Below the pieces are notes generated by a model. It had not been told where the DNA came from. It ran no database searches and saw nothing but the letters and a program-made list of their open reading frames with translations. A stretch of 64,000 bases of DNA from Acidobacteriota bacterium (GTDB taxonomy: Bacteria; Acidobacteriota; Thermoanaerobaculia; Gp7-AA8), in NCBI GenBank assembly GCA_003223645.1, contig QHVT01000004.1:59334-123333 (forward strand), in the 5' to 3' direction. The translations under genes were made by a program, and so were the position numbers. Position 1 is the stretch's first letter, and each line of letters starts with the position of its first letter. Shown here piece by piece: positions 2,606 through 60,403 of the stretch.

Positions 2606-2623
2606 GAACAGTTATTGTACACA

Positions 2624-22355: not shown

Positions 22356-22378
22356 ATCACACCCACAATCGTTCTCTC

Positions 22379-22450
22379 CGCCATCCGCCATCCGCCATCC
22401 GCCATCCGCCATCCGCCATCCGCCATCTGCCATCTGCCATCTGCCATCTG
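22379..22450. repeat. Single-arm tandem heptamer array (GCCATCC)5(GCCATCT)5 in the moeA/padR divergent region
   Basis: Direct reading of ccatccgccatccgcc...atctgccatctgccatctg. Same heptamer as the hairpin family at 26597, 28066, 48498 and 60308. Confidence 0.9.
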
Positions 22451-22467
22451 GTCAATATAGCCACCAT

Positions 22468-22842
22468 GTGTATAATCGTCGCGTGTATAGCCAGGATGAG
22501 ATCGACTCGCTGCTTCCGCTGCCACCCGCCACGTTCCACATCCTCGTCGCGCTGAGCGACGGGGAGCGTCACGGATACGCGATCATTCAGGACGTCGAGT
22601 CGTCCACCGACGGCGAGCTGCGGCTCTCCGCCGGCACGCTCTATCGCTCGATCGCGCGCATGGTCGAGCAGGGACTGATCGCCGAGACCACGAAGAAATC
22701 CTCGCGCCGCGACGACGATCAGCGCCGCCGCTACTACCACGTCACTTCGTTCGGCACCGCCGTCGCGCGCGCCGAGATGCGCCGCCTCACCCGCCTCGTC
22801 CGCCTCGGCCGCGCCAGCGGCCTCACTCCGGAGAACGTCTGA
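22468..22842 (+). CDS. PadR-family transcriptional regulator
   Basis: LPLPPATFHILVALSDGERHGYAIIQDVE...LSAGTLYRSIARMVEQGLI is the PadR winged helix. GTG start at 22468 or 22483; a TATAAT at 22471-22476 suggests a short or leaderless transcript. Stop overlaps the next gene's ATG (TGATG). Confidence 0.8.
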   Translation: MYNRRVYSQDEIDSLLPLPPATFHILVALSDGERHGYAIIQDVESSTDGELRLSAGTLYRSIARMVEQGLIAETTKKSSRRDDDQRRRYYHVTSFGTAVARAEMRRLTRLVRLGRASGLTPENV

Positions 22843-25505: not shown

Positions 25506-26594
25506 ATGACTGCCACTCTTCCGCTCGAATCGCAGACCACGGCGACGCGCACCGATCGCATTCCGGTCGCCGTTCTCGGCGCCACCGGCTCCGTCGGGCA
25601 GCGATTCATCCAGCTCCTCGAAAACCATCCGTGGTTTCGCCTCCACGAAGTGGTCGCGTCCGAGCGCAGCGCCGGAAAAACGTACGGCGACGCCGCCGAC
25701 TGGCGACTCGACTCGCTCCTGCCGCGTGACGCGTCGAAGCTGATCGTCAAAGACCTCGGCGCCGGTCTCGAGTCGCGCCTTCTTTTCTCAGGGCTCGATT
25801 CCTCGGTTGCAGGCGAAGCCGAGGAGGAGTACGCGAATCGCGGATGCGCCGTCATCTCCAACTCGCGCAATCACCGCATGGATGACGACGTGCCGCTGCT
25901 GATTCCCGAGATCAATGCCGATCACGTCGGCGCGATCGAAGTGCAGCGGAAACGGCGGCTCGGATACATCGTCACGAACCCGAACTGCAGCGTGATGGGA
26001 CTGGCGATGGTCCTCGCGCCGCTCGAGCGCGCATTCGGCGTCGACAAGGTGCAAGTCACGACCATGCAGGCGATCTCCGGCGCGGGCTATGCCGGCGTCG
26101 CGTCGTACGCGATCCTCGACAACGTGATCCCGTTCATCGGCGGCGGCGAGGAAGACAAGATCGAGAAAGAGCCGCGCAAGATCCTCGGCAAGTGGGACGG
26201 CGCGCATCACATCGACGCGCAGATGACGATCTCCGCGCAGGTGAATCGCGTCCCGACGATCGACGGACATCTGATGACGATCTCCGTGAAGCTGCGCGAC
26301 CATGCGTCGGTTGAAGACGTGCGCGCAGCGATCGAGTCGTTCAGCGGCGAGCCGCAAGCGCTCGGACTTCCATTCGCGCCCAAACATCCGCTGCACTACA
26401 TCGACGCGCCCGACCGTCCGCAGCCGCGGCTCGATCGCGATCGCGAGCGCGGCATGGCCGTCAGCGTCGGCCGCCTCCGCCCGTGCAACGTGCTCGACCT
26501 GCGCATGGTCGCGCTCGTGCACAACACGATTCGCGGCGCCGCGGGCGCGGCGATCCTCAACGCGGAGCTGTTGCAGGCGCGGGGACTGCTGTGA
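25506..26594 (+). CDS. asd: Aspartate-semialdehyde dehydrogenase
   Basis: VLGATGSVGQRF NAD(P) motif, active-site NPNCS, SGAG. Confidence 0.9.
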   Translation: MTATLPLESQTTATRTDRIPVAVLGATGSVGQRFIQLLENHPWFRLHEVVASERSAGKTYGDAADWRLDSLLPRDASKLIVKDLGAGLESRLLFSGLDSSVAGEAEEEYANRGCAVISNSRNHRMDDDVPLLIPEINADHVGAIEVQRKRRLGYIVTNPNCSVMGLAMVLAPLERAFGVDKVQVTTMQAISGAGYAGVASYAILDNVIPFIGGGEEDKIEKEPRKILGKWDGAHHIDAQMTISAQVNRVPTIDGHLMTISVKLRDHASVEDVRAAIESFSGEPQALGLPFAPKHPLHYIDAPDRPQPRLDRDRERGMAVSVGRLRPCNVLDLRMVALVHNTIRGAAGAAILNAELLQARGLL

Positions 26595-26596
26595 GG

Positions 26597-26690
26597 CGAC
26601 GGATGGCGGATGGCAGATGGCGGATGGCAGAAGCGCCACACGGGTGGCGGGGCCATCTGCCATCTGCCATCTGCCATCGGGACGGGCGGC
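26597..26690. repeat. Hairpin element with heptamer-repeat arms: (GGATGGCR)x4 - loop agaagcgccacacgggtggcgggg - (CCATCTG)x3
   Basis: Between asd and lysC. The arms are reverse complements built from GGATGGC/GCCATCY units. Confidence 0.9.
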
Positions 26691-26694: not shown

Positions 26695-28062
26695 ATGATC
26701 GTCATCAAGTTCGGCGGCACCTCGGTCGGCGACGCGGACCGCGTCGCGAATGCGATCGAGATCGTCGCCGAGCGCAGGCAGCGCAAGCCGATCGTCGTCG
26801 TCTCCGCGCTCTCCGGCGTCACGAACAACCTCGTCGATGCGTCCGAGGCCGCGTGCTCGCAGGACCCGAAGCGCGTGCGCGAGATCATCGCCGCGGTGCG
26901 CCAGCGGCACGAAGACGTCGCGCTGCAGCTCGTGCAGCAGAAGTCCGATTTCTTCGAGTCGTTCATCAAGCAGCTCGACAAACAGATCGAGGAGATCGAC
27001 ACGATCCTGCGCGGCATCGCGCTCCTCGGCGAGATCACGCCGCGCGCGCGCGACAAAGTGATGTCGATCGGCGAGAAGCTGTCATCCGTCCTGTTCGCGT
27101 ACACGATGATGATGCGCGCGCTGCCGGGCGAGCATGTGCATTCCGAGGAAGTGATCTGGACCGATGACCGCTTCGGCGGCGCGACGCCGGACATGGCGAA
27201 GACGCGCGACGCCGCGCAGCGCGTGCTGATGCCGCTCCTCGAGCGCAATCGCATTCCGGTGATGGGCGGCTTCATCGGCCGCACCGAAGCCGGCGCGACG
27301 ACCACGCTCGGACGCAACGGATCGGATTACAGCGCCGCGATCGTCGGCGCGGCCCTCGGCGCAAGCGAAGTGCAGATCTGGACGGACGTCGACGGACTGC
27401 TCACGTGCGATCCGCGCCTCGTGCGCGGCGCGCGCGTCATCGATCGCCTGTCGTTCGACGAAGCCGCGGAGCTCGCATCGTTCGGCGCGAAGCTGCATCC
27501 GCGCACGCTCGAGCCGGCAATCGCGGAGAACGTTCCGGTGCGCGTCCTCAACACGCACAACCCCGCTTCGCAGGGGACGCTGATCACGCGCGTCGTCGAG
27601 AACGCGCCCGCCGGGCCGCGCTCGATTGCGCGCAAGAAAGGCATTGCCGTCGTGCACATCTCGTCGAACAAGATGCTCGGCGCACACGGATTTCTCGCGC
27701 GCCTCTTCGACGAATTCGAGCGGCTCGCGATCTCGGTCGATCTCATCACGACGTCCGAAGTGTCGGTGTCCGTGACGGTCGACGACACGCAGAACCTCGA
27801 CAAACTGGAAGCGCGCTTGCGCGAAGTCGCGGACGTGAACGTCGAAGCCGATCAGTGTGTCATCGCTGTCGTCGGAACGGACCTCCTCGCCGATTCCGCT
27901 GTCGGCGTGCGCGTGTTCGAGGCGCTCCGCGGCATTCGCCTGAAGATGGTCTCCCTCGGACGCTCCGGTCTCAATCTCAGCCTCGTCGTCGACAACGCCG
28001 ACGCCGATCGCGCGGTCGAGTCGATTCATCACGCGCTCTTCGAGGCGCCCGTCGCCGTATGA
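26695..28062 (+). CDS. lysC: Aspartate kinase
   Basis: MIVIKFGGTSV, VVSALSGVTN; C-terminal ACT domains. Confidence 0.9.
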   Translation: MIVIKFGGTSVGDADRVANAIEIVAERRQRKPIVVVSALSGVTNNLVDASEAACSQDPKRVREIIAAVRQRHEDVALQLVQQKSDFFESFIKQLDKQIEEIDTILRGIALLGEITPRARDKVMSIGEKLSSVLFAYTMMMRALPGEHVHSEEVIWTDDRFGGATPDMAKTRDAAQRVLMPLLERNRIPVMGGFIGRTEAGATTTLGRNGSDYSAAIVGAALGASEVQIWTDVDGLLTCDPRLVRGARVIDRLSFDEAAELASFGAKLHPRTLEPAIAENVPVRVLNTHNPASQGTLITRVVENAPAGPRSIARKKGIAVVHISSNKMLGAHGFLARLFDEFERLAISVDLITTSEVSVSVTVDDTQNLDKLEARLREVADVNVEADQCVIAVVGTDLLADSAVGVRVFEALRGIRLKMVSLGRSGLNLSLVVDNADADRAVESIHHALFEAPVAV

Positions 28063-28065
28063 GAG

Positions 28066-28150
28066 GCGGATGGCAGATGGCAGATGGCGGATGGCAGAAG
28101 AGGGTGCCGGGTGGTGGGGCCATCTGCGATCCGCCATCTGCCATCCGGGA
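28066..28150. repeat. Heptamer-armed hairpin (GGATGGCR)n - loop agaagagggtgccgggtggtgggg - (CCATCYG)n
   Basis: Between lysC and dapB. Same architecture as 26597-26690. Confidence 0.9.
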
Positions 28151-28159: not shown

Positions 28160-28798
28160 GTGAAGATCGCGCTGCACGGCTACGGCAAGATGGGACACGC
28201 CGTCGAGCGCGTCGCGAAGGAAACGGGACACGAGATCGTGCAGCCGGCCGACGCCGTGGTGCTGATCGATTTCTCTAACGCGAGCGTGCTCGATCGCGCG
28301 ATCGCGACCGCGATCGACAACCACCTCGACCTCGTCATCGGCACGACCGGCTGGAACGATCGCCTCGACGAAGTGCGCGACCGCGTGAAGAACATCGGCT
28401 GCGTCTACGCATCGAATTTTTCGCCCGGCGCAAATGCCGTGTTCGCGCTGGCGCGGCGCGCGGGAGAACTGTTCGCGCGCTTCCCGCAATACGCGGCGGG
28501 GATGGAAGAGCGGCATCACGCGCAGAAGAAAGACGCGCCGAGCGGAACGGCGCTGCGCATTGCGTCCGAGGTGCAGCAGGGAAGCGGGGGAACATTCGAT
28601 CCGCCGATCGCGGCGCTGCGCGTCGGCGCGGAATTCGGACTGCACACGCTCTACTTCGACTCGCCCGATGATCTCGTCGAGATCACGCATCGCGCGCGCG
28701 GCCGCGACGGATTCGCGCGCGGCGCGATCTTTGCGGCGGAGCTCGTGCGAGGGAAAAAGGGATTGTTTCGATTTGATGAATTGCTGGGAAGGGAATAG
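28160..28798 (+). CDS. dapB: 4-hydroxy-tetrahydrodipicolinate reductase (short form)
   Basis: GTG 28160 preceded by gggagg. VKIALHGYGKMG NAD motif, later GTTGW, HHAQKKDAPSGTA. Confidence 0.85.
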   Translation: MKIALHGYGKMGHAVERVAKETGHEIVQPADAVVLIDFSNASVLDRAIATAIDNHLDLVIGTTGWNDRLDEVRDRVKNIGCVYASNFSPGANAVFALARRAGELFARFPQYAAGMEERHHAQKKDAPSGTALRIASEVQQGSGGTFDPPIAALRVGAEFGLHTLYFDSPDDLVEITHRARGRDGFARGAIFAAELVRGKKGLFRFDELLGRE

Positions 28799-28872
28799 GA
28801 CAAATAGGACCTCTAGGACAGATAGGACGCCGATGTCCTATGCGTCCTATCTGTCCTATTCGTCCTAGTTGG
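28799..28872. repeat. Hairpin with (ATAGGAC)n / (GTCCTAT)n repeat arms
   Basis: ggacaaataggacctctaggacagataggacgccgatgtcctatgcgtcctatctgtcctattcgtcctag. A related element lies at 52193-52290. Confidence 0.9.
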
Positions 28873-28882: not shown

Positions 28883-29764
28883 ATGTTTCGTGGCGTCGGC
28901 ACCGCACTGGTCACTCCGTTCCAATCCGACGGCACCCTCGATGAGGGCGCGCTGGCGCGTTTCGTCGATTGGCAAATCGATGAAGGCGTGAACTTTCTCG
29001 TGCCGTGCGGCACCACCGGCGAGAATCCGGCGCTGAGCGCGGAGGAACATCGCCGCGTCGTCGAGATCACGGTGCAGCGCGCGAAGGGGCGCGTGCCCGT
29101 CCTCGCCGGCGCGGGCAACAACAACACAGCGCGCGCGGTCGAGCTCGCGGAGCTCGCCATCGACCTCGGCGCCGACGGCGCGCTCACGATCACGCCGTAC
29201 TACAACAAGCCGACACCCGACGGACTGCGGCGGCACTTCGGCGCGCAGGCCGAGGCGATCGAGAAAAAGAAAAGCGGCTTCCCGATGGTCATGTACAACG
29301 TTCCCGGACGCACGGGACTGAACATGACGGCGGAGACGACGCTGCGCATGGCGCGCGAGATCCCGAACATCTGCGGCGTGAAAGAAGCGTCGGGAAACAT
29401 GGAGCAGATCCTCACGATCCTCCGCGATCGTCCCGAAGGATTCCTCGTCATCAGCGGCGACGACGCGTGGACGCTGCCGCTGCTGGCAATGGGCGGCGAC
29501 GGCGTGGTCTCGGTCGCGAGCAACGAAGTGCCGCGGCTGATGCGGCAGATGGTCGACCGTCGCGACCTCGACATTCACAATCGATTGCTGCCGCTGCTGA
29601 CCGGCAACTTCATCGAGTCGAGTCCGATCCCGGTGAAGACCGCGCTGAAGATGATGGGCATCCTCGAAAGTGATACGGTTCGTCCGCCGCTCGCGCCGAT
29701 TACCGACGCGAATCGCAAGAAACTCGAGGCGATCCTGCGCGAATGCGGCCTCTTGCCGTCATGA
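28883..29764 (+). CDS. dapA: 4-hydroxy-tetrahydrodipicolinate synthase
   Basis: ALVTPF, GTTGE, active-site Lys region (YNVP...K). Stop overlaps the dapD start (ATGA). Confidence 0.9.
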
Positions 29765-30591
29765 TCACCATCGAAGAGCGCGTGAAAGCGCTGAAGACGT
29801 ACACCGAGCGCGATCGCCCCGAGGCGGTCAAGACGATCAGTCTGCTGCTCGTCGAATTGGAGAAAGGGAACGCGCGAGCGGCCGCGCGCGACGAAGACGG
29901 CGTGTGGCGCGCGAACACGTGGGTGAAGGAAGGAATCCTCGCCGCGTTTCGCTGGGGCGTCGCCGCCGAGTTCGCGTCGGGTGCACTGTCGTTCGTCGAC
30001 AAAGACACGATCCCGCCGCGTCGCTTCAAGGCCGCCGACGGAATCCGCATCGTGCCCGGCGGCTCGTCGATCCGGCGCGGCTCATACATCGCCAGGAGCG
30101 TGGTCATGATGCCGCCCGCGTTCGTCAACGTGGGCGCGTACGTCGACGAGAAGACGATGATCGATTCTCATGCGCTGGTCGGCTCGTGCGCGCAAATCGG
30201 CAAAGGCGTGCACATTTCCGCGGCCACGCAGATCGGCGGCGTGCTCGAGCCGGTCGGAAGTCTGCCGGTCATCATCGAAGACGACGTGATGGTCGGCGGC
30301 AACTGCGGTATTTACGAAGGAACCGTCGTGCGCTCGCGCGCCGTCATCGGCGCAGGTGTCGTGCTCACGAAATCGACGCGCGTCTACGACCTGGTGCGCG
30401 GCCAGATCTATCGCGGCAGCGCCGAGCGCCCGCTGGAAATTCCGTACGCCGCGGTCGTCATTCCGGGTTCGCGTCCGGCGGAAGGCACGTTCGCCGAAGA
30501 ACACGGTCTCAATATCGCGACGCCAATCATCGTGAAGTACCGCGACGACAAAACCGACGGCGCGACGGCGCTGGAAGAAGCCCTTCGGTGA
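29761..30591 (+). CDS. dapD: Tetrahydrodipicolinate N-succinyltransferase (hexapeptide-repeat acyltransferase; DapD-like)
   Basis: Left-handed beta-helix hexapeptide repeats ([40 protein letters not shown]...). Operon context between dapA and an aminotransferase. Confidence 0.75.
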
Positions 30592-31697
30592 AAGCCGATC
30601 GCCTCGCGAACATCGAGCTCTCGCTCATCCGCCAGATCAACGCGCTCGCCACGCCCTACTCCATCAACCTCGGCATCGGCGAGCCGAATCTCGCGCCCGA
30701 TGACACGCTGCGCGAATTCGCCGCGCGCGCCGCGACGCTGCCGTGGCAATACTCCGCGAACGCGGGCACGCTGTCGCTGCGCAAGAAATTGTGCGAGGGA
30801 ACGGAGTTCGATCCGAAGACCGAGGCGTGCGTCACCGCGGGCACGCAGGAAGCGCTGTTCGCGATCTTCACCGCGTACGTGAATCCCGGCGACGAAGTGC
30901 TCGTGCCGAATCCCGGCTTCGTGTCGTACGCGACGCTCGCGCGCATCTGCGGCGCAACGCCCGTTACGTATCAGCTCGATCCGCCGGAGTGGCACATTGA
31001 CGTCGACGCGCTGCGAAAAAAGATCACGCCGAAGACGAAGCTGATCGTCGTCAACTCGCCGTCGAATCCCCTCGGCTCGGTGATCGATCGCGAGACATTG
31101 CAGGTGATCGCGGACACCGGCGTGCTCGTCGTCAGCGATGAGATCTATCGCGAGATCTGGTACGACGCGTGGCCGGCGTCGATGGTCGGCATGGGCGACA
31201 ACGTGATCCTGATGAACGGCCTCTCGAAGAGCCACGGCATGACCGGCCTGCGCCTCGGGTGGATTCTCGCGCGCGCCGATGTGATGCAGCCGATCGTCAC
31301 CGCGCATCAGTACATCGCCACGTGCGCGTCCGTTTTCTCGCAGGCGCTCGCGGAGATGATCTTCGATCATCGCGAATGGAACGAGCAGTGGCTCGCCGGC
31401 GTGCGCGAGCAGTTCGCGGCGCAGCGCGAAGCAGCGTTGTACGCGATCCGCCACGAGCTCGACACCGAGCTCGATCCGCCACGCGGCGCGTTCTACGCGT
31501 TCGTGCCGATGCCTGCGTGCAACACGGTGGAGACCGCGAAAGAGCTCGCGACCGACGCCGCGGTGCTCGTGATTCCGGGAATCGCGTTCGGGAAAATGGG
31601 ACAGGGATTCGTGCGGGTCTCGTACGCCGCGCCCGTCGATCAGATAGCGACCGGAATCGAGCGCATCGGACGATGGTTGCGCGCAAAGGAAAGATGA
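30588..31697 (+). CDS. Class I/II PLP-dependent aminotransferase, likely N-succinyl-diaminopimelate aminotransferase
   Basis: GTG start overlapping the dapD stop (GTGA). [22 protein letters not shown] (PLP lysine), fold-type I. Confidence 0.8.
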
Positions 31698-32530
31698 AGG
31701 CAGAAGGCAGAAGGCAGAAGGCAGAAATAAGAAAGCGCCGAGGCACTCGTCTCGCGGTCTTTCTCACTTCTGCCTTCTGCCTTCTGCCTTCTGCCTTCAT
31801 TGCTCTCCCAGTTCACGCCCAAACGCCCGATTACTCCCAGTGGAACCGCGTCCTCTCCACGTACTACAACCCCGCGAAAGGCATGGACTACCGTGCGCTC
31901 AAAGCGCGCGACTTCAAGACCGTGCAGTCGCTGCGACAGCAGCTCGGCAAAGTGAACGTCGCCGCGCTCGATCGCAAGTCGCAGCTCGCGTACTGGATCA
32001 ACGTCTACAACATCAACACCGTCGCTACGGTGCTCGAGGCGTATCCGGTCGACTCGATCCGCGACATCTCGACGGATCTCATCATCCGCCTCAACGTTTT
32101 CAAGAAAGAACGCATCCCGTTCGGAAACGTCCAGCTTTCACTCGACGCCGTCGAGAACGGAAAGATTCGCGAGGGCTTTCACGATCCGCGCATTCACTTC
32201 GCGATCAACTGCGCGGCGAAAACGTGTCCGCCGATCCGGATGGAGGCGTTCAGCGGCCTGAGGCTCGACGCGCAGCTCGACGATCAGGCACGCGCGTTTC
32301 TCAACGGCCCGCACGGCGTCCGCTTCGAGCGCGACGGCGGCACGCTCACCATCCACACGACGAAAATCATGGACTGGTTCAGCGACGACTTCGAAAAATG
32401 GGGCGGCGGCAAAGCGAAGTTCATTCGCAAATACGTCCCTGCCGACAAACAGAAACTGATCGACTCCGCGAAAGAGATCGAGTTCGAGTACGACGACTAC
32501 GACTGGGACCTGAACGACTGGAAGCGCTAG
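31694..32530 (+). CDS. DUF547-domain protein with signal peptide
   Basis: ATG overlaps the aminotransferase stop (ATGA) with an aaggaaag RBS. YWINVYNINTV and FAINCAAKTCPP are DUF547 hallmarks. N-terminal 40 aa are encoded by the GAAGGCA hairpin. Confidence 0.7.
   Translation: MKAEGRRQKAEIRKRRGTRLAVFLTSAFCLLPSAFIALPVHAQTPDYSQWNRVLSTYYNPAKGMDYRALKARDFKTVQSLRQQLGKVNVAALDRKSQLAYWINVYNINTVATVLEAYPVDSIRDISTDLIIRLNVFKKERIPFGNVQLSLDAVENGKIREGFHDPRIHFAINCAAKTCPPIRMEAFSGLRLDAQLDDQARAFLNGPHGVRFERDGGTLTIHTTKIMDWFSDDFEKWGGGKAKFIRKYVPADKQKLIDSAKEIEFEYDDYDWDLNDWKR
31697..31800. repeat. Hairpin with (GAAGGCA)x3 / (TGCCTTC)x3 arms
   Basis: gaaggcagaaggcagaaggcagaaataagaaagcgccgaggcactcgtctcgcggtctttctcacttctgccttctgccttctgccttc. 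Confidence 0.9.
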
Positions 32531-32640
32531 ACAAAAGCAGAAAGCAAAAGGCAGAAAGCAGAAGTGGGAGCGGCGAGACCCAAAACGCTTTCGTCTTTAC
32601 TTCTGCTTTCTGCTTTTTGCTTTCTGCTTTCTGAGCACGC
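32531..32640. repeat. Hairpin with (RGCAGAA)n / (TTCTGCY)n arms
   Basis: aaaagcagaaagcaaaaggcagaaagcagaag...cttctgctttctgctttttgctttctgctttc, following the DUF547 stop. Confidence 0.9.
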
Positions 32641-35891: not shown

Positions 35892-35962
35892 GGGCCTCCT
35901 GGCCTCCTGGCCTCCCAGCCTCTGAGCCTCCCAGAAACCCTTAGACGCCTGGAGGCTTGGCG
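35892..35962. repeat. Hairpin with (GGCCTCC)n / (GGAGGC)n arms between convergent genes
   Basis: gggcctcctggcctcctggcctcccagcctctgagcctcccag...cctggaggcttggcggcctggaggct. Confidence 0.85.
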
Positions 35963-48494: not shown

Positions 48495-48497
48495 GAA

Positions 48498-48660
48498 GAA
48501 GTGGATGGCGGATGGCGGATGGCCTAGGGCGGATGGCGGATGGCGGATGGCAGATGGCGGGTCGCGGATCGCGGATGGCGGGTCACAGACCGTGGTTTTC
48601 TTCCGCCATCCGCCATCTGCCATCTGCCATCCGCAATCTGCCGTCTGCCATCTGCCTCAT
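48498..48660. repeat. Largest heptamer-armed hairpin: (GGATGGCR)n left arm, central segment, (GCCATCYG)n right arm
   Basis: Direct reading. Both arms are >40 bp of GATGGCG/GATGGCA units and their complement. Confidence 0.9.
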
Positions 48661-49888
48661 CGCGCTCGTCGCCGCGAGCTGCACGACCACGACGCCCCCG
48701 CCGCCCGCGGTCACGCCGCAGGGGGAGGATCGGTATCTCATCGATCCGCGAACCGGCTCCGCGGCCGGCGATCCGCTGACGGAGCGCAAGTTCGAAGCGG
48801 CATGGGCAAACATTCTCTCCGGCGATGAAACGGAAGCGCGTCGATTGCTCGACGAGATCCGCCGGAAAAATCCCGCGTACGTTCCCGCCGCGCTCGCGCA
48901 GGCAGTCATCGACATCCACGCGAATCGCTTCGATGAAGCGCTGACCATCGCGAAAAAATACGACACGATCGCCGCGAAAGTGTACGAAGCGGAGATCGCG
49001 CTGCGCGAGAACGATGCGCGCAACGCGCTCACGCTCTATCGCGCCATCGCCGCGCAGCCCGGCGCGCCTTCGACCGCGGGCGAGCGCGTCGCGCAACTCG
49101 AGAACACGATGTACGAGCAGCTCTTCGCATCCGCGAAAACCGCGGCGGACGCGGAGTCGATCGCGCTCCTGCGCGAAGCGCTCACGTACAGACCCGCGGC
49201 GGTCGAGCCGCGCATTCTGCTCGCGCGCAGGCTCGTCACGCAGCGCGCGTTCGATGAAGCGCGGCGCGAGCTCGATCCGCTCCTCAACAGCGCCGAAGTC
49301 GACCGCCCCGAAGTGCAGGAACTGCTCGCGGAGATCGACGTCGGACGCGGCCGCTTTCAGGAAGCGATCGTGCGCTACGACCGGCTCGCGCGCCGCACCA
49401 AAGAGCCGCGCTACCAGCAGCGCCTCGACGAGATCAAGTCGGAATGGAGCAGCGCCAACATGCCCGCGGACTATCGCGCTGCGCTCGACAGCCCCGCGAT
49501 CACGCGCGCCGACTTCGCCATCCTTCTCTACTGGTCCGTCCCCTCGATCCGCTTCGCCCGCAACCTCGGCACGCCGCCGATCGCCGTCGACATCGAAGAC
49601 GTTGCCGGCCGCGACGAGATCGTCCGCGCGATCGCCATCGGCGTCTTCGACGTCGATCCCGTCACGCGACGCGTCGGCCCGACGCGCACTGTCACGGCCG
49701 AACGCCTCTCGCGCCACCTCGCGCGCGTGCTGCAACTCCGCGGCGCCGCCTGCGCGCGTGGCGTGACGATCGACAAAGTGCTCCCGGCCTGCGGCGTGAA
49801 CGACCCGCTCGCAACGATGCCGCCCGACGCGCTCGTGAGCGGACGCGATGCGAAGGCGCTGTTGGATCAAGTCGCGAAACAGCTCTAG
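48575..49888 (+). CDS. Hypothetical lipoprotein with helical/TPR-like N-terminal region
   Basis: Candidate ATG at 48575 lies inside the hairpin. The right arm encodes ...SAIRHLPSAIRNLPSAICLIALVAASC (lipobox-like VAASC). No recognisable catalytic motifs; the start is uncertain. Confidence 0.45.
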   Translation: MAGHRPWFSSAIRHLPSAIRNLPSAICLIALVAASCTTTTPPPPAVTPQGEDRYLIDPRTGSAAGDPLTERKFEAAWANILSGDETEARRLLDEIRRKNPAYVPAALAQAVIDIHANRFDEALTIAKKYDTIAAKVYEAEIALRENDARNALTLYRAIAAQPGAPSTAGERVAQLENTMYEQLFASAKTAADAESIALLREALTYRPAAVEPRILLARRLVTQRAFDEARRELDPLLNSAEVDRPEVQELLAEIDVGRGRFQEAIVRYDRLARRTKEPRYQQRLDEIKSEWSSANMPADYRAALDSPAITRADFAILLYWSVPSIRFARNLGTPPIAVDIEDVAGRDEIVRAIAIGVFDVDPVTRRVGPTRTVTAERLSRHLARVLQLRGAACARGVTIDKVLPACGVNDPLATMPPDALVSGRDAKALLDQVAKQL

Positions 49889-50559: not shown

Positions 50560-52191
50560 ATGGAATCGGTCCCGCCTCGCGCGGAAGTCACTGTCTACTC
50601 GCCGCTGTTCTCGCCCTTTCGTCACACGCTCGACGGGAGTGCCGTGTCCATCGGAAGGGCATCCGACTGCTCGATTCCCATCAAGGATCGTTACCTCTCG
50701 CGCAAACACGCCGAGATCATCGCCGTCGGCGCGGCGTGGGTCCTCAAGGACCTCGGCAGCGCGAACGGCACGTACCTCAACGGCACGCGCGTCGAACGCG
50801 ACGAAGCGCTGAAGCCCGGCGACCGCATCCGCCTCGGCGACACCGAGATCGTCTTCGAGGCGACGGAGCGCAACACCGATCGCTTCATCGCCGTCGCCGA
50901 GTCGAAAGCCAGCGCCACGATCGCGATCCCCGTTCACGAGATCACCGACCGTCCCGAAGCCGTCGACATCGCGCGCCTGCAGACGCTCACGCTCCTCGCG
51001 CGCGAGCTGATCGAAGACCGCCCGATGGACGAGCTGTTCGGCTTCATCGTCGAGCGCGTGATGGAGCATTTGCATCCCTCGAGAGCGGCGATCGCGCTGC
51101 TTGCGTCGGACGGAAAGTCGTTCACCAAAGTCGAAGTGCGGCGGCAGGACAAGAACGACTCCAGCGAGCTGACGATCAGCCACACGCTCCTGGCCGACAT
51201 CGTCGAAGAGAAAAAAGCGCTCGCGTTCATGGACATCAGCGCGGACGACAAACTGAGCCGCGCGCAGTCGATCATCATGCAGGGCATCCACTCGATTCTC
51301 TGTGCACCGCTGATGATCGGCAACGCCGTGGTCGGCGTGCTGTATGTCGACTACCTCTTCACGCAGCGCTCGATCACCGAAGACGACGTGCGCCTCGTCG
51401 CGCAGATCGGACGCTTCGCCGCCATCAAGCTCGAGACGACGCGTCTCCGCGAAGACGCGATCCAGAAACGCATCATGGACGAGGAGCTGAAGACCGCGTC
51501 AAACATCCAGCGCCGGCTCCTTCCCGCCGCGCCGAGCGCGATTGCCGGCTACACGTTCGTCGGCCGCAACCAGCCGAGCCGCGTCGTCAGCGGCGACTAC
51601 TACGACTTTGCCGTCCGTCCGAACGGCAAGGTCTACTTCGTCATCGGCGACGTGAGCGGGAAAGGCGTGACCGCAGGAATCATGATGGCCGGCCTCCAGG
51701 TCGCATTCCGCATCTTCTCGAAGACCGATCCCGATCCGGCCACGCTGGTGACGCAGCTCAATCTCGCGCTCAAAGAGAATCTCCCGCAGTCGAAATTCGT
51801 CACGCTCTTCCTCGGACGCCTCGACACCACGACCGGCGTGATCGAGTACGTCAACGCCGGCCACACACCGCCGCTCTGGCTGCACAAACGCGGCGTCACG
51901 GAGTTGACGGAAAGCGATCTCCTCCTCGGCGTCGTCACGCGCGCCGAGTTCGTGAACCGCAAACTGCAGCTCGATGCCGGCGACTCGCTCATCCTCTTCA
52001 CCGACGGCGTGAGCGAAGCGCGCAACGCCGCCGACGCCGACCTCGGATCGAATCTCCCGCTCGGCTCGATGCACGGAGCCAGCGCGGAGCTCATCGCGCG
52101 CGCCGTCAACGAAGCCGTGATCGCGCACGTCGGCGCCGCAGAAAATCTCGAGGACGACGTCACGGTCGTCATCGTCAGCCGCTCCGCGTAG
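50560..52191 (+). CDS. FHA-GAF-PP2C (SpoIIE/RsbU-type) serine/threonine phosphatase
   Basis: N-terminal FHA (SIGRASDCSIPIKDRYLSRKHAEI...GSANGTYLNG), central GAF, C-terminal PP2C (SGDYYDF...FVIGDVSGKG...LFTDG). Confidence 0.85.
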   Translation: MESVPPRAEVTVYSPLFSPFRHTLDGSAVSIGRASDCSIPIKDRYLSRKHAEIIAVGAAWVLKDLGSANGTYLNGTRVERDEALKPGDRIRLGDTEIVFEATERNTDRFIAVAESKASATIAIPVHEITDRPEAVDIARLQTLTLLARELIEDRPMDELFGFIVERVMEHLHPSRAAIALLASDGKSFTKVEVRRQDKNDSSELTISHTLLADIVEEKKALAFMDISADDKLSRAQSIIMQGIHSILCAPLMIGNAVVGVLYVDYLFTQRSITEDDVRLVAQIGRFAAIKLETTRLREDAIQKRIMDEELKTASNIQRRLLPAAPSAIAGYTFVGRNQPSRVVSGDYYDFAVRPNGKVYFVIGDVSGKGVTAGIMMAGLQVAFRIFSKTDPDPATLVTQLNLALKENLPQSKFVTLFLGRLDTTTGVIEYVNAGHTPPLWLHKRGVTELTESDLLLGVVTRAEFVNRKLQLDAGDSLILFTDGVSEARNAADADLGSNLPLGSMHGASAELIARAVNEAVIAHVGAAENLEDDVTVVIVSRSA

Positions 52192-52192
52192 G

Positions 52193-52290
52193 ACTTTTAG
52201 GACGAATAGGACATCTAGGACAGATAGGATGTCCTAGAAGTCCTATTCGTCCTATTCGTCCTATTCGTCCTACCTGTCCTACCCCGCCTT
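52193..52290. repeat. Hairpin with (ATAGGAC)n / (GTCCTAT)n arms; second member of this family
   Basis: ggacttttaggacgaataggacatctaggacagataggatgtcctagaagtcctattcgtcctattcgtcctattcgtcctacctgtcctacc. Confidence 0.9.
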
Positions 52291-53701: not shown

Positions 53702-54062
53702 TGCCTTCTTCGTCAAGCCACGCGCGGATCGCGCGCGTGGCTTGATCGTTCTTGAAGTTGAAGAACTTCTTCTGCACGTAAATGTCCTCGGAGAGCTTCG
53801 CGCGAAATCCCTGCGGCTCGTCGATGAGCTGCGCGAGCTGATCTCGCAGCGGCGACCGGGCGTCCATTCGCTCGACGAACAGCCGCCGATCCTCCGCTTC
53901 GCTCTCCGGCGTGCGCGCCGGAACCCGCCGGAATCGCGATGGATCACCGGGCGGATCGTCATCGAGCGGGACGTCGAGAATTTCGCCGGTCTCGAGGTCG
54001 AGGTAATGCGCCAGCGCAACGCCGAGGTACGCGACTTGAAGGCCGTCGAGGTCCAGGCTCAT
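53691..54062 (-). CDS. Hypothetical protein (124 aa)
   Basis: ATG at ~54062 at the edge of a hairpin repeat; the rest of the listed ORF upstream is repeat-derived. No family recognised. Confidence 0.4.
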   Translation of the reverse strand: MSLDLDGLQVAYLGVALAHYLDLETGEILDVPLDDDPPGDPSRFRRVPARTPESEAEDRRLFVERMDARSPLRDQLAQLIDEPQGFRAKLSEDIYVQKKFFNFKNDQATRAIRAWLDEEGISE

Positions 54063-54124
54063 GGGCTCATAGTCGCATAGGCTCATAGAAACTATGCGCC
54101 CGTGAGCCTGTGAGCCCATGCGCC
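54063..54124. repeat. Hairpin with GGCTCATAG-type repeat arms
   Basis: gggctcatagtcgcataggctcatagaaactatgcgcccgtgagcctgtgagccc, in the divergent region before murQ. Confidence 0.8.
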
Positions 54125-54148
54125 CTGTGGGTGATATCTTCGGTGACG

Positions 54149-58026: not shown

Positions 58027-58137
58027 TGACACGCGGAGTGGTACGCGCCTCCGGCGCGCCTCCCGTCCCCCCAAAGGCGCGCCGGAGGCGCGCACCACTC
58101 CAACGGTTTGAGACGGTAGCTGACGCAGGCGTGAGTT

Positions 58138-58992: not shown

Positions 58993-60314
58993 AGAATCAC
59001 GGAAAACACATCAAGCACATCGAGCACGTCGCCGGCACGACGTACGTCCGCTTGCCGATCATCGCGTTCATCGGCGGCCTGCTCGCGCTCATCGTCCTCA
59101 CGATCGCGTTCTGGTCGGCGAAGCGAAAGCAGGACGCGAAGCTGAACGTGAAGTCGGCGTCGGAGATCCGCACGCTTCTTCCCTCGCTCGTCGGCCTCAC
59201 GCAGTCGACGCTCGACGGCGGCAACAGCGTCCAGGTCCTGCAGAACGGCAACGGATTTTTCCCGCCGATGCTGCGCGACATCGCCGCCGCCCGCGAGAGC
59301 GTGCACGTCGAGACATACATCTGGAGCAAGAGCGCGTTCGCGACGCAGTTTGCGCAATCGCTCGCGGCGAAAGCGCGGCAGGGCGTCGAAGTGCGCGTGC
59401 TCGTCGACGCGTCCGGCGGACGCGATCTCAAGGGCGACACGCAGAAGATCCTGGAGGACGCCGGCGCAAAGGTCGCGCATTTTCATCCCATCCGCATCAG
59501 CAACCTCGGCCGTCTGAACAATCGCGATCACCGCAAGCTCGTCATCATCGACGGCCGCATCGCCTACACCGGCGGCCACGGCATTTCCGCGAACTGGACG
59601 GGCGACGCGCAGGACAAAGAGCATTGGCGCGACACGGGGCTGCGCATCAGCGGCCCGGTCGTCAATCGATTGCAGGCGTGCTTCTCCGAAAACTGGATCG
59701 AGGAGACCGGCGAGATTCCCGCGGGCGACAAGTTCTTTCCGCACATCGCGCCGGCAGGCCCCACCGAGGCGCACGTCGCGTACACGTCGCCGACCGGCAG
59801 CATGTCGTCGGTGGAGATCCTCTACTACCTCGCCATCAAATCCGCGCGGCGCGAGATCCTGATTCAGAATCCATATCTGCTGCCGAACGAGGAGGCGATC
59901 AACGCGCTCGAAGACGCGGTGAAGCGCGGCGTCGACGTGCGCATCATGGTCCCGTCGACCGACGCGACCGACAGCGCGGTCGTGCAGCACGCGAGTCATC
60001 ATCACTTCGGCACGCTGCTCAAGCGCGGGATCAAGCTGTACGAGTACAAACACACGCTGCTGCATCAGAAAGTGATCGTCGTCGACGGCATCTGGTCGTC
60101 CGTCGGCTCGACGAATTTCGACGAGCGCTCGTTCCAGCTCAACGACGAAGTGAACATCGGCCTCCTCGACGCGAACGTCGCCGCGCAGCTGCGCAGCGCG
60201 TTTCAATCCGACCTTCGTTACTGCACGCAACGCCACTTCAACGAATGGCAGAAGCGCTCGCTGTGGCACAAGTTGGAGGATGGGCTGGCATACTTGGCAC
60301 ATGCGCAGATGTAG
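58989..60314 (+). CDS. Phospholipase D-family protein, cardiolipin synthase-like (two HKD motifs)
   Basis: TM anchor, HKD1 RDHRKLVIIDG and HKD2 HQKVIVVDG...GSTNFD. ATGA overlap with the EEP gene. Confidence 0.85.
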   Translation: MKNHGKHIKHIEHVAGTTYVRLPIIAFIGGLLALIVLTIAFWSAKRKQDAKLNVKSASEIRTLLPSLVGLTQSTLDGGNSVQVLQNGNGFFPPMLRDIAAARESVHVETYIWSKSAFATQFAQSLAAKARQGVEVRVLVDASGGRDLKGDTQKILEDAGAKVAHFHPIRISNLGRLNNRDHRKLVIIDGRIAYTGGHGISANWTGDAQDKEHWRDTGLRISGPVVNRLQACFSENWIEETGEIPAGDKFFPHIAPAGPTEAHVAYTSPTGSMSSVEILYYLAIKSARREILIQNPYLLPNEEAINALEDAVKRGVDVRIMVPSTDATDSAVVQHASHHHFGTLLKRGIKLYEYKHTLLHQKVIVVDGIWSSVGSTNFDERSFQLNDEVNIGLLDANVAAQLRSAFQSDLRYCTQRHFNEWQKRSLWHKLEDGLAYLAHAQM

Positions 60315-60400
60315 ATGGCAGATGGCAGATGGCGGATGGCGGATGGCCCCACCGCCCGGCTCGCGCTCCTGCCATCTGCCATCTGCCATCCGCCATCTGC
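60308..60400. repeat. Heptamer-armed hairpin (TAGATGGCAGATGGCAGATGGCGGATGGCGGATGGC - loop - GCCATCTGCCATCTGCCATCCGCCATCTGC)
   Basis: Direct reading, between the PLD-like and GNAT genes. Confidence 0.9.
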
Positions 60401-60403
60401 ATC

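What the first reader, a model, noticed from the sequence alone, without database searches (positions are those of the whole stretch)
28799..28872. A general pattern: hairpins whose arms are short tandem repeats, with a different repeat unit at each locus
Besides the GGATGGC family there are several more:
- (ATAGGAC)n/(GTCCTAT)n at 28799-28872 and 52193-52290
- (GAAGGCA)3/(TGCCTTC)3 at 31697-31800
- (RGCAGAA)n at 32531-32640
- (GGCCTCC)n/(GGAGGC)n at 35892-35962
- GGCTCATAG-type at 54063-54124
All are in intergenic regions (mostly 3' of genes, some divergent or at a gene start) and all share the architecture repeat(n)-loop-complement repeat(n). This suggests a common generating mechanism, such as slippage plus template switching or a hairpin-propagating element, rather than independent terminators. 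Ordinary terminators are not built from perfect tandem 7-mers.
Basis: seen in the sequence. Interest (0 to 1): 0.7.

Follow-up and report, generated by a model that had tools for sequence, protein, structure and literature searches.

The report
Hairpins built from inverted microsatellite arrays
This soil acidobacterium and its relatives carry, in the gaps between genes, very stable hairpins whose two arms are mirror-image runs of a 7-9 base repeat; they are a real, lineage-wide class of gained-and-lost palindromic repeat element, of a kind seen once before in Xanthomonas and not ordinary terminators.

Summary
All six listed loci, plus four GGATGGC loci, are hairpins whose arms are tandem arrays. 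My detector finds 8 strict cases in 64 kb against 0 in 100 Markov-3 nulls. Fold z-scores are -6 to -12.5 for nine loci; 35893 is weak.

Corrections:
- TAGGAC has period 9, not 7.
- GAAGGCA has 4 copies per arm, not 3.
- Units are not unique per locus. About 4 families occur, and GGCGGAT, GGCAGAT, GGCAGAA and AGCAGAA are neighbours.
- 31694-31800 probably lies inside a signal-peptide ORF.

The window is from a Thermoanaerobaculia soil bacterium. I counted 70 such hairpins in 912 kb of window plus relatives, against 2 in 1040 kb of other phyla. In the conserved asd-lysC-dapB-dapA-dapD-dapC operon each junction is either an ATGA-type overlap or holds one 70-160 nt hairpin. 57 of 96 junction hairpins are repeat-armed; the rest are REP-like palindromes. 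So they are derived insertions.

Two hairpins in one genome share a unit family 26% of the time, against 3.5% between genomes, and paralogues share loops, so sequence passes between loci. A 2-unit deletion between strains shows slippage. No U-tract, no G·U strand bias and no mirrored variants were found, so terminators and inter-arm template switching are unsupported.

The closest precedent is Xanthomonas GGGAATC inverted pairs. Function is unknown. My best guess is REP-like mRNA barriers or RNase III sites, or selfish DNA.

The parts
26600..26678 (.). Repeat-armed hairpin, unit RGATGGC (4+4 copies), 23-nt loop with an inner GCCAC/GTGGC stem. It fills the asd (stop 26592-26594) | lysC (ATG 26695) gap.
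   Evidence: Fold -70.5 kcal/mol, z -10.9. The junction is an overlap or a few nt in L001, L002, L010, L092 and L119.
28065..28147 (.). Repeat-armed hairpin, unit RGATGGC (4-5 + 4 copies). Its loop and 3' tail are homologous to those of 26600. It fills the lysC (stop 28060-28062) | dapB (GTG 28160) gap and is followed by a new GGGAGGA ribosome-binding site.
   Evidence: Fold -56.4, z -6.8. Most relatives have GTATGA stop/start overlap here.
28794..28867 (.). The finding's own locus. The hairpin is 4+4 copies of a 9-nt unit (core TAGGAC plus 3 variable nt). The dapB stop TAG 28796-28798 is the TAG of the first unit. dapA GGAG and ATG 28883 follow.
   Evidence: Fold -41.6, z -6.1. It is the only hairpin that varies among 99.8-100% identical strains: a 2-unit deletion in the 5' arm plus 3 SNPs. 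The junction is empty in L001, L093 and L119 and holds three other elements in L090, L091 and L092.
31694..31800 (.). Hairpin with (GGCAGAA)4 / (TTCTGCC)4 arms around an inner A-tract/GC-stem/T-tract core. It starts at the ATG that overlaps the dapC TGA (31695-31697). It is probably translated as an extended 42-aa signal peptide of the DUF547 protein.
   Evidence: 42-nt arms, 95%. Fold -84.8, z -12.5. The next in-frame start, 31883, lies inside the conserved mature region. The size difference from L106 and L023 is +23 codons. The gene caller reads through it.
32534..32633 (.). Hairpin with (RGCAGAA)4 arms in the DUF547 (stop 32528-32530) | beta-lactamase (ATG 32668) gap.
   Evidence: 32-nt arms, 97%. 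Fold -61.6, z -9.1. L001 has a 45-nt gap without it, while downstream CACGCA..CTTGCTTA is conserved.
35893..35962 (.). Weak, degenerate period-8 hairpin with GGCCTCCY / CCTGGAGG arms. It lies 1 nt after the stop (35889-35891) of a 504-aa protein, in a convergent gap. It is a chirality exception, with a C-rich 5' arm.
   Evidence: period 8, 4.9 copies. Fold -36.6 on +, z -1.8, and -46.3 on -.
48495..48661 (.). The largest RGATGGC hairpin, with about 11 + 7 units. It lies directly after the miaA stop (48492-48494) and before the TPR gene.
   Evidence: Fold -107.6, z -9.5. The gene caller starts the TPR ORF at an ATG inside the array.
52188..52282 (.). Second TAGGAC-N3 period-9 hairpin (4-5 + 6 units). 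The stop TAG 52189-52191 of the FHA-GAF-SpoIIE gene is the first unit. The next gene starts at ATG 52328.
   Evidence: Fold -57.2, z -11.4.
54055..54125 (.). Period-8 GGCTCATR hairpin overlapping the called starts of a minus-strand hypothetical gene (53691-54062) and the SIS-domain gene (54110-55009).
   Evidence: Fold -44.3, z -6.6. The same unit family occurs at dapA|dapD in L003, L008 and L110.
60308..60403 (.). RGATGGC hairpin (5+4 units) whose loop is the reverse complement of the 26600 and 28065 loops. The PLD-family gene stop TAG 60312-60314 lies inside a variant unit. The GNAT gene ATG 60404 follows immediately.
   Evidence: Fold -73.0, z -8.1.
22377..22448 (-). One-armed array of the same family, (GGATGGC/AGATGGC)x10 read on the minus strand, with no partner arm. 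It lies in the divergent moeA / padR region.
   Evidence: period 7, 10.3 copies, 98% matches. Unchanged in six strains. It abuts a promoter-like site at 22449-22476.

Best explanation
These are members of a lineage-wide class of non-coding palindromic repeat elements in Thermoanaerobaculia (Acidobacteriota).

Anatomy:
- Each element is an inverted pair of short tandem-repeat arrays. The period is 7 in most cases, sometimes 8 or 9, with 3-19 units per arm.
- The arrays are usually wrapped around a short GC-rich inner stem-loop.
- The 5' arm is almost always the G-rich one.

What is shown:
- They are derived insertions into gene junctions. The typical site is the gap between a stop codon and the next ribosome-binding site, within operons whose genes otherwise overlap.
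- They occupy the same niches as REP-like palindromes of the same genomes.
- They fall into families that are shared among loci within a genome but differ between species. So sequence passes between loci, by copying to new sites or by conversion.
- Each arm changes length and homogenises on its own by unit-wise replication slippage.

What is inferred:
- Selection confines survivors to positions where a stop codon is kept or supplied on the 5' side.
- Selection also keeps the arm next to the downstream start codon C-rich, so free of Shine-Dalgarno and start-codon look-alikes. That would explain the stop-codon adjacency and the chirality.
- When transcribed inside polycistronic mRNA they form 25-55 bp near-perfect stems without U-tracts. 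They would therefore act, if they act at all, as 3'-exonuclease barriers or RNase III processing sites, in the manner of REP/BIME elements, rather than as intrinsic terminators.
- Much of their abundance may be selfish or neutral.
For: Reality and lineage distribution:
- establish the hairpins in the window.
- 70 occur in 912 kb of window plus relatives, against 2 in 1040 kb of other phyla.

Derived insertions:
- Across five junctions of the syntenic asd-lysC-dapB-dapA-dapD-dapC operon in about 75 genomes, 165 junctions are 30 nt or shorter, mostly ATGA-type overlaps. 96 hold one strong hairpin.
- Of those 96, 57 are repeat-armed, 16 are the GTCATCCyGAGCG type, 6 GGGGAGAGGG, 5 GGAGTGCGGCG and 2 GGGCTTCAGCCC.
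- At dapB|dapA, seven of the closest species (88-100% DapA identity) carry four different elements or none.

Spread between loci:
- Unit-family sharing is 26% within genomes against 3.5% between genomes, p<0.0002.
- In the window and L101 the adjacent asd|lysC and lysC|dapB junctions carry the same unit within each genome (GGCRGAT, GCAGAGS); in L012 asd|lysC is a strict GGCGGTT hairpin and lysC|dapB holds a GCGGTT-type array that only the eye reads as two-armed. The units differ between genomes.
- Loops of three RGATGGC copies are 70-74% identical, one of them inverted.

Slippage:
- An 18-nt, 2-unit deletion in one arm separates strains that are 99.86% identical.
- Arms are unequal and arrays show higher-order repeats.

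Position and chirality:
- The stop codon lies -17 to +10 nt from the first core word.
- The 5' arm has G>C in 52 hairpins and G<C in 8.

Not terminators:
- No U-tracts.

Other:
- No Rfam family matches.
- No transposase gene was seen among the window's called genes and annotated long ORFs.

Precedent for the architecture and position: Xanthomonas GGGAATC arrays, with 70-75 convergent pairs, mostly 4 units, on average 28 nt after the upstream ORF (PMC4692102).
Against: - No mobilising enzyme, terminal motif or target-site duplication was identified, and junction comparisons are ambiguous. 'Propagation' is therefore inferred from family structure only.
- One case, L092, has a unit identical to the adjacent conserved dapB 3' end (8/8). 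This hints at local origin or microhomology-guided insertion.
- Loops are not conserved across families or species.
- There is no evidence of RNA-level selection. Sense RNA is more stable in 8 and antisense in 10 of 18 co-directional cases.
- Among near-identical strains, six of seven hairpins are invariant, so turnover is not fast on that scale.
- Only about 64 kb of this genome and 20 kb or less per relative were seen, nearly all around one operon.
Confidence: 0.6

Rival explanations
1. Each hairpin is a purely local mutational by-product. A short repeat next to a small pre-existing hairpin expands by slippage and is mirrored to the other side by replication template switching (inverted-repeat expansion). 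This happens independently at each locus, with no transfer between loci.
For: - Unit-wise indel between strains.
- Unequal arms and higher-order repeats.
- Inner GC-rich stems inside most loops.
- One-armed arrays exist: 22377-22448, and (TTCATCG)5 in L027.
- The L092 unit GAGTTGCT equals the conserved dapB 3' end and sits in a two-level duplication of it.
- In 31694-31800 the insertion is 69 nt, not 107 nt. Part of the hairpin may therefore be ancestral signal-peptide DNA.
- Template switching is known to homogenise and expand inverted-repeat arms (PMC8604942, PMC13100816, PMC7202029).
Against: - Units are not, in general, more similar to their own empty-site sequence than to other junctions: 0.73 against 0.75.
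- The L092 unit also occurs at another junction in L130.
- Unit families are strongly genome-specific across unlinked loci.
- Paralogues share loops and tails.
- Variant units are not mirrored between arms, and arms often fix different variants.
Confidence: 0.2
2. They are functional cis-elements recognised through the repeat unit. They would be arrays of binding sites for a protein or RNA, or G-quadruplex-forming repeats as proposed for Xanthomonas. On this view the hairpin potential is secondary.
For: - In the TAGGAC-N3 loci only the 6-nt core is conserved and the 3-nt spacers largely do not pair. That pattern looks like spaced recognition sites.
- RGATGGC has GG tracts that could form two-tetrad quadruplexes.
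- The 5'-G-rich chirality is the same as in the Xanthomonas convergent pairs.
- The one-armed array abuts a promoter-like site.
Against: - Dozens of unrelated units exist, many with a single G per unit, for example AGTCTCAA and GATTTTG.
- Several families coexist in one genome.
- Orthologous junctions are empty or hold unrelated palindromes in sister species.
- The arrays nearly always come as complementary pairs.
Confidence: 0.1
3. They are ordinary, independently evolved intrinsic transcription terminators or attenuators. They happen to be repetitive.
For: - They lie directly 3' of stop codons.
- One inner core, at 31739-31754, matches a terminator-like pattern on both strands.
- 35893 sits between convergent genes.
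Against: - There are no U-tracts after the outer stems, and none of them is flagged by the terminator scan.
- Stems are 25-55 bp.
- Seven or eight of the ten lie between co-directional genes, and five of those lie along a run of genes (asd to beta-lactamase) whose order is conserved. At the operon junctions most relatives have overlapping genes.
- One is inside an ORF.
- The genome-specific family structure is not expected for independent terminators.
Confidence: 0.05

Closest known systems
Xanthomonas GGGAATC heptamer repeats occurring as convergent inverted pairs (Rehm et al. 2015, PLoS One, PMC4692102)
   Same: - Tandem heptamers, most often 4 units.
- 70-75 cases per genome where two arrays face each other and could form a stem-loop.
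- 89-93% are intergenic.
- They lie much closer to the upstream ORF end (about 28 nt) than to the next ORF, mostly between co-oriented genes.
- The G-rich arm comes first on each strand.
- Lengths differ between species while the type is preserved.
   Different: - Xanthomonas has one unit genome-wide, with G3 tracts, and was studied as a quadruplex former.
- Here there are many unit families per lineage and several per genome, with periods 7, 8 and 9. Most units cannot form G3 quadruplexes.
- The host is a different phylum.
- Here I document insertion into overlapping operon junctions and replacement by other palindromes, which that paper does not analyse.
REP / BIME / REPIN elements (repetitive extragenic palindromes mobilised by RAYT transposases)
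   Same: - Short non-coding palindromes in many copies.
- Genome-specific families.
- They lie after stop codons and between cistrons.
- They show presence/absence between relatives.
- REP-like families (GTCATCCyGAGCG, GGAGTGCGGCG and others) occupy the very same junctions here.
   Different: - REPs are 20-40 nt imperfect palindromes of fixed sequence with a GTAG or CGTC tag (PMC3733652, title and abstract seen).
- These have arms made of tandem units and stems 2-4 times longer.
- They have no common tag, and no RAYT gene was seen in the DNA examined.
Cyanobacterial STRR heptamers and Beggiatoaceae TAACTGA repeats
   Same: Intergenic tandem heptamers that are over-represented in particular lineages, some within operons. 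The general heptamer excess among prokaryotic long-unit SSRs is attributed to polymerase slippage.
   Different: They are overwhelmingly direct arrays. There is one inverted case among 170 TAACTGA sets, and few pairs in Nostoc. TAACTGA arrays sit just upstream of start codons.
Rho-independent (intrinsic) terminators
   Same: A GC-containing hairpin immediately downstream of a stop codon.
   Different: These hairpins have no U-tract and much longer stems. They lie inside operons between genes that overlap in relatives.
Quasipalindrome template-switch mutagenesis and inverted-repeat expansion (E. coli, yeast; PMC7202029, PMC8604942, PMC13100816)
   Same: A known replication error that makes inverted-repeat arms identical and longer. 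It could create the second arm from a one-armed array.
   Different: It is a process, not an element. Its expected footprint, mirrored variants between arms, is not seen here.

Membership tests
Inverted pairs of heptamer-type SSR arrays (Xanthomonas type) | Each arm is a tandem array of at least 2-3 units of a 7-nt (here 7-9 nt) motif | tested here: met
   52 of period 7, 15 of period 8 and 3 of period 9.
Inverted pairs of heptamer-type SSR arrays (Xanthomonas type) | Two arrays of complementary units in convergent orientation within a short distance, with the G-rich array first on each strand | tested here: met
   loops of 3-90 nt. The 5' arm has G>C in 52 hairpins and G<C in 8.
Inverted pairs of heptamer-type SSR arrays (Xanthomonas type) | Intergenic, close to the end of the upstream ORF, mostly between co-oriented genes | tested here: met
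   the stop codon lies -17 to +10 nt from the first unit. 7-8 of the 10 window loci are between co-directional genes.
Inverted pairs of heptamer-type SSR arrays (Xanthomonas type) | A single genome-wide G3-tract unit (GGGAATC) able to form G-quadruplexes | tested here: not met
   dozens of units and several per genome. Most lack G3 tracts.
REP / REPIN | Multi-copy family of near-identical palindromes within a genome | tested here: inconclusive
   There are 4-5 RGATGGC copies in 64 kb with homologous loops, and family sharing within genomes. Copy numbers for a whole genome could not be obtained.
REP / REPIN | Conserved GTAG or CGTC tag at one end of a 20-40 nt imperfect palindrome | tested here: not met
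   Flanks and arm ends show no common terminal motif. GTAG occurs only where a TAG stop codon happens to lie.
REP / REPIN | A cognate RAYT (Y1 transposase) gene in the genome | not testable with these tools
   No such gene is in the window or in the gene calls around it. The rest of the genome is not available.
MITE | Terminal inverted repeats flanked by a target-site duplication of fixed length | tested here: inconclusive
   Filled and empty junctions were compared. The possible short duplications (TGG at dapB|dapA, TGA/ATGA at lysC|dapB) are not consistent, and selection for a stop and a start codon would also produce them.
Intrinsic terminator | Short GC-rich stem followed by a U-tract | tested here: not met
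   no outer hairpin is flagged. The sequences after the 3' arms lack T runs.
Intrinsic terminator | Located at the end of a transcription unit | tested here: not met
   Five window hairpins lie along a run of co-directional genes (asd to beta-lactamase) whose order is conserved. The three at asd|lysC, lysC|dapB and dapB|dapA sit at junctions that are ATGA-type overlaps or a few nt in most relatives.
Phase-variable (contingency) SSR | Copy number differs among closely related strains | tested here: inconclusive
   One of seven loci varies among strains that are 99.8-100% identical. The 10-unit one-armed array is invariant.
Phase-variable (contingency) SSR | The array lies in a promoter or reading frame so that unit changes switch a gene on or off | tested here: not met
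   Most arrays lie after stop codons. Only 22377-22448 abuts a promoter-like site.
Known structured RNA family (Rfam) | Match to a curated covariance model | tested here: not met
   no match at gathering threshold anywhere in the window.

The most novel reading that the evidence does not exclude
The hairpins may be a new kind of non-autonomous mobile element whose identity is structural rather than sequence-based. It would be a microsatellite-armed hairpin that an as yet unknown lineage-specific activity copies into stop-codon/start-codon junctions. That activity could be an enzyme that recognises hairpins, or a replication or repair pathway. Each genome would run its own rapidly diverging 'master' unit. 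Insertions would occasionally be exapted, for example as the charged-plus-hydrophobic extension of a signal peptide at 31694-31800.
Probability: 0.2. Interest if true: 0.8.

Novelty: new variant of a known kind. Interest (0 to 1): 0.55.

Why it matters
If the picture holds, a poorly studied soil lineage has repeatedly split tightly coupled, overlapping operon genes with very stable hairpins, and it tolerates this.

That has four consequences:
- It bears on how operon mRNAs are processed and how translational coupling is lost and rebuilt. One example is the new ribosome-binding site after the 28065 hairpin.
- It gives a natural system in which microsatellite dynamics and palindrome dynamics act on the same element.
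- It extends the little-noticed Xanthomonas observation into a multi-family phenomenon in another phylum. This suggests that inverted long-unit SSR pairs are a general class of bacterial repeat.
- It has practical effects on annotation. Gene callers start ORFs at ATGs inside GGATGGC arrays (moeA, TPR protein) and read through hairpins.

Tried and rejected
1. RNA-level signature. I compared fold energies of the sense and antisense strands, since G·U pairs would favour the functional strand. Sense was more stable in 8 and antisense in 10 of 18 co-directional cases, Wilcoxon p=0.55. There is no signal.
2. Inter-arm template switching. I tested whether the order of variant units is mirrored between arms, against permutations. 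Observed exceeded permuted in 19 of 62 cases, p=0.66. It is not supported.
3. Local seeding. I compared unit similarity to orthologous empty-site sequence with similarity to other junctions: 0.73 against 0.75. There is no general effect. The L092 8/8 match remains an isolated case.
4. A common loop motif across families. Only generic GC-rich hexamers such as GCGGCG were enriched. The CCGGGTGG motif is limited to a few loci.
5. Terminator scan and Rfam. Nothing was found.
6. Target-site duplications. I compared filled and empty sites by eye. The result is inconsistent.
7. An automatic arm-periodicity classifier built on RNAfold arms failed, because the arms include non-periodic inner stems. I replaced it with core-word detection.
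8. Assembly artefact. Rejected, because identical sequences occur in independent assemblies.
9. Integron attC sites and DNA-uptake sequences were considered from memory. I dropped them because the flanking genes are syntenic core genes and several unit families coexist per genome.
10. Literature searches found no description of this in Acidobacteriota.
Full report
**1. The observation**

The listed sequences are there. At 28794-28867 the window reads (NNNTAGGAC)x4, GCCGAT, (GTCCTANNN)x4. A second copy of the same design is at 52188-52282.

Tandem Repeats Finder and the inverted-repeat finder independently report complementary arrays at:
- 26600/26652
- 28065/28119
- 31696/31767
- 32534/32601
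- 35893 (5' array only; its degenerate 3' partner at about 35940-35962 was identified by eye, not by either tool)
- 48503/48605
- 54055/54098
- 60295/60369

A one-armed ten-copy array lies at 22377-22448.

I wrote a detector for this architecture. It requires a 6-mer core at least three times at a fixed period of 6-10, with its reverse complement at least three times at the same period within 100 nt. It finds 8 loci in the window and none in 100 third-order Markov simulations. 20 of the 24 periodic clusters in the window are members of such pairs.

Predicted RNA stems have -41.6 to -107.6 kcal/mol, with z-scores of -6.1 to -12.5 for nine loci. The 35893 locus is marginal, at z -1.8 on the + strand.

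Several details of the finding need correcting:
- The TAGGAC loci have period 9, with a conserved hexamer and three variable bases that mostly do not pair.
- Two loci have period 8.
- GAAGGCA occurs four times per arm.
- The units are not unique to each locus. Five loci use RGATGGC and two use TAGGAC. GGCGGAT, GGCAGAT, GGCAGAA and AGCAGAA form a one-step series.

**2. Where the window comes from, and gene context**

Using DapA (28883-29764) as a probe, the nearest genomes are soil MAGs of Thermoanaerobaculia, Acidobacteriota. Contigs that are 99.8-100% identical occur in several independent soil metagenome assemblies. This rules out an assembly artefact.

Pfam and the public gene calls give the following gene map:

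| Gene | Coordinates |
|---|---|
| asd | 25506-26594 |
| lysC | 26695-28062 |
| dapB | 28160-28798 |
| dapA | 28883-29764 |
| dapD | 29761-30591 |
| aminotransferase (dapC) | 30588-31697 |
| DUF547 | to 32530 |
| beta-lactamase | 32668-33561 |
| miaA | to 48494 |
| TPR protein | to 49888 |
| FHA-GAF-SpoIIE | 50560-52191 |
| beta-lactamase family | 52328-53701 |
| PLD family | 58989-60314 |
| GNAT | 60404-61264 |

Seven or eight of the ten hairpins fill gaps between co-directional genes. One lies in a convergent gap (35893). One overlaps two called gene starts (54055).

The upstream stop codon is 0-5 nt before the stem or inside its first unit. Over the whole catalogue it lies -17 to +10 nt from the first core word.

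None of the outer hairpins has a U-tract or is flagged by the terminator scan. No Rfam family matches. No transposase was seen among the window's called genes and annotated long ORFs.

**3. The pattern is a trait of the lineage**

I counted 70 such hairpins in 912 kb of the window plus Thermoanaerobaculia relatives. Only 2 occurred in 1040 kb of loci from other phyla fetched with the same probe.

- Periods are 7 (52 hairpins), 8 (15) and 9 (3).
- The mean energy of the more stable strand is -65 kcal/mol.
- In 52 hairpins the 5' arm has more G than C; in 8 the reverse holds. Because a palindrome reads the same on both strands, this chirality does not depend on transcription direction.

**4. They are derived, gained-and-lost insertions**

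The asd-lysC-dapB-dapA-dapD-dapC order is conserved in about 75 relatives.

Each junction is bimodal. Over five junctions:

| Junction state | Count |
|---|---|
| 30 nt or shorter, typically a stop/start overlap such as GTATGA | 165 |
| One strong hairpin | 96 |

The 96 strong hairpins break down as follows:

| Hairpin class | Count |
|---|---|
| Repeat-armed (37 strict, 20 relaxed) | 57 |
| GTCATCCyGAGCG palindrome | 16 |
| GGGGAGAGGG type | 6 |
| GGAGTGCGGCG type | 5 |
| GGGCTTCAGCCC type | 2 |
| Unclassified | 10 |

L001, one of the closest species (93% DapA identity, about 83% nucleotide identity), has none of the five hairpins that the window carries between asd and the beta-lactamase gene.

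The dapB|dapA junction shows the turnover clearly:

| Genome | State at dapB\|dapA |
|---|---|
| window | TAGGAC hairpin |
| L092 | GTTGCTGG hairpin |
| L090 | GGGGAGAGGG palindrome |
| L091 | GTCATCC palindrome |
| L001, L093, L119 | ancestral CTGGAGTAAATGATG, no hairpin |

In the filled sites the old GGAGTAAA...ATG survives downstream of the insert, and a new stop codon lies at the start of the insert. Restoring a 4-nt overlap by precise deletion is unlikely, so insertion is the economical reading.

**5. Families and spread between loci**

Two hairpins from the same genome share a unit family (one mismatch or fewer, any rotation) in 19 of 73 pairs. For hairpins from different genomes the figure is 73 of 2072 pairs. 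The permutation test gives p<0.0002.

In the window and L101, the adjacent asd|lysC and lysC|dapB junctions carry the same unit within each genome: GGCRGAT in the window and GCAGAGS in L101. In L012 asd|lysC is a strict GGCGGTT hairpin, and lysC|dapB holds a GCGGTT-type array that the detector flagged as an array only and that I read as two-armed by eye. The units differ between genomes.

The loops of 26600, 28065 and, in reverse complement, 60295 align at 70-74% identity. The 3' tails of the first two are also similar.

So sequence moves between loci, by copying or by conversion. Some hairpins are also old and orthologous, with every unit in both arms changed together:
- TAGGAC in the window against TGGGAC in L095.
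- The GGCTCAAA / GGCTCAYA / AGTCTCAA series at dapA|dapD.
- AGTGCTG at dapD|dapC in L016 and L018 (orthologous, with similar loops), with the related CGTGCTG in L027 at the same junction. The same unit also occurs in L125 and L132; in L132 it lies at a different site from the AGTGCTG hairpin that one search reports at dapD|dapC.

**6. Slippage yes, template switching not shown**

Strains that are 99.86% identical to the window differ at the dapB|dapA hairpin. The differences are an exact two-unit (18-nt) deletion in the 5' arm only, three substitutions and one 1-nt indel. Overall these strains show about 1.4 differences per kb. The other six arrays are identical.

Copy numbers of the two arms are often unequal, for example 4 vs 19, 3 vs 7 and 11 vs 7. 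Some arms show 16- or 24-nt higher-order periodicity.

The order of variant units is not mirrored between arms: observed exceeds permuted in 19 of 62 cases, p=0.66. Arms often fix different variants, for example GTGCTGA against TGTGCTG in L018. Each arm therefore homogenises on its own, and frequent palindrome correction is not visible.

Units are not generally derived from the local empty-site sequence. One case differs: the L092 unit GAGTTGCT is identical to the conserved dapB 3' end and forms a nested duplication of it.

**7. Function**

Sense and antisense transcripts fold equally well, so there is no G·U signature of RNA-level selection.

By position and shape they resemble REP/BIME elements. 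If transcribed, 25-55 bp near-perfect stems would be expected to block 3' exonucleases and to be substrates of RNase III. This is inference only.

Two regularities can be explained by purifying selection on where an insertion is tolerated. This too is inferred:
- Stop-codon adjacency. An insert upstream of a ribosome-binding site embedded in the preceding gene must supply a stop codon.
- A C-rich 3' arm. It avoids Shine-Dalgarno-like and start-codon-like sequences just before the next start.

The 31694-31800 hairpin begins at the ATG that overlaps the dapC stop, as in L023. The next in-frame start (31883) lies inside the conserved mature protein. The frame is open through the hairpin, and the size difference from relatives is 23 codons. 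The purine arm encodes a charged n-region, and the pyrimidine arm a hydrophobic h-region ending VHA|QTP. That hairpin is therefore probably translated.

**8. Comparison with known elements, and novelty**

The closest precedent is the GGGAATC heptamer repeat of Xanthomonas (PMC4692102). It shows:
- 70-75 convergent pairs per genome
- mostly four units
- 89-93% intergenic
- on average 28 nt after the upstream ORF

The elements here differ in four ways. They have many unit families and periods. Most lack quadruplex potential. They occur in another phylum. And they show documented insertion into overlapping operon junctions, alongside REP-like palindromes.

They fail the defining tests for intrinsic terminators and for tagged REPs. 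MITE features are inconclusive.

Literature searches found no description in Acidobacteriota.

I class this as a new variant of a known kind. The evidence for what it is and how it evolves is solid. The evidence for what it does is weak.

Noticed in passing
window 31694-31800 (ORF 31694-32530): The GGCAGAA hairpin appears to be translated. It gives the DUF547 protein a 42-aa leader, [42 protein letters not shown]|QTP. Relatives have 18-19 aa leaders, for example MKRAFIAAFLLLLPLAAHA|QT in L106. The purine arm encodes the charged part and the pyrimidine arm the hydrophobic part. In L027 a one-armed (TTCATCG)5 array lies in the same signal-peptide region.
   Followed up: partly
window 42722-42824: A 42-nt-arm, 98% complementary inverted repeat of the GTCATCCCGAGCGTGAGCGAGGGA type. 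It fills the gap between the two succinyl-CoA ligase subunit genes on the minus strand (42829-43992 and 41831-42712). The same family occupies lysine-operon junctions in L011, L017, L022, L023, L091, L117, L126 and others.
   Followed up: partly
window 19113-19201 and 58035-58101: Two further non-periodic long palindromes of the GTGGAGCGGCG... / GGAGTGGTACGCGCC... type. One lies directly after the peptidase M20 gene and the other after the glucosamine-6-phosphate isomerase-family (Pfam Glucosamine_iso) gene. Related GGAGTGCGGCG palindromes sit at operon junctions in L018, L027, L093 and L111.
   Followed up: partly
window 41530-41817: A 21-nt tandem repeat, about 14 copies, consensus TTCTGGGATTGATCCCATGAG. 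Each unit contains a small GGGATnnATCCC palindrome, so the array is a chain of mini-hairpins. It lies between the carbonic anhydrase gene (to 41509, +) and the succinyl-CoA ligase (CoA_binding/Succ_CoA_lig) gene at 41831-42712 (-).
   Followed up: no
window 3497-3930: A 42-nt tandem repeat, 10.4 copies at 86% match, with a 125-nt higher-order period. Each unit carries a GTGAYGAAAGATCAC palindrome. It lies between a metallophosphoesterase gene (2615-3466) and a sulfatase-TPR gene (4014-6068).
   Followed up: no
window 22377-22476: The one-armed (TCCGCCA)x10 array ends exactly at a promoter-like site, TGGTCA-16-TATAAT at 22449-22476, upstream of the padR-type gene. The gene caller starts moeA at an ATG inside the array. 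Copy number is identical in six strains.
   Followed up: partly
window 28794-28867 compared with L082, L083 and L086: This single hairpin concentrates about 5 of the roughly 30 differences between strains over 20 kb: an 18-nt deletion, 3 SNPs and 1 indel. All other hairpins are invariant.
   Followed up: yes
L026 10170-10411; L138 3347-3503; L012 dapA|dapD gap (311 nt): Extreme or composite elements. L026 has arms of 4 vs 19 units with a GTCATCC palindrome nested in the loop. L138 has a 209-nt element with at least 9 vs about 15 units. L012 has nested hairpins of two different period-8 units.
   Followed up: no
window 48512 and 22433: Public gene calls begin the TPR protein and MoeA at ATG codons inside GGATGGC arrays. 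This gives implausible MADGGW-repeat N-termini and is probably a mis-annotation caused by the repeats.
   Followed up: partly
L092 9887-9989: The hairpin unit GAGTTGCT is identical to the conserved 3' end of dapB (GATGAGTTGCTGGA). The gene end is duplicated twice (GAGTTGCTGGATTCGT x2) before the array. The same unit also forms a hairpin at dapD|dapC in L130. This could reflect local origin or microhomology-guided insertion.
   Followed up: partly
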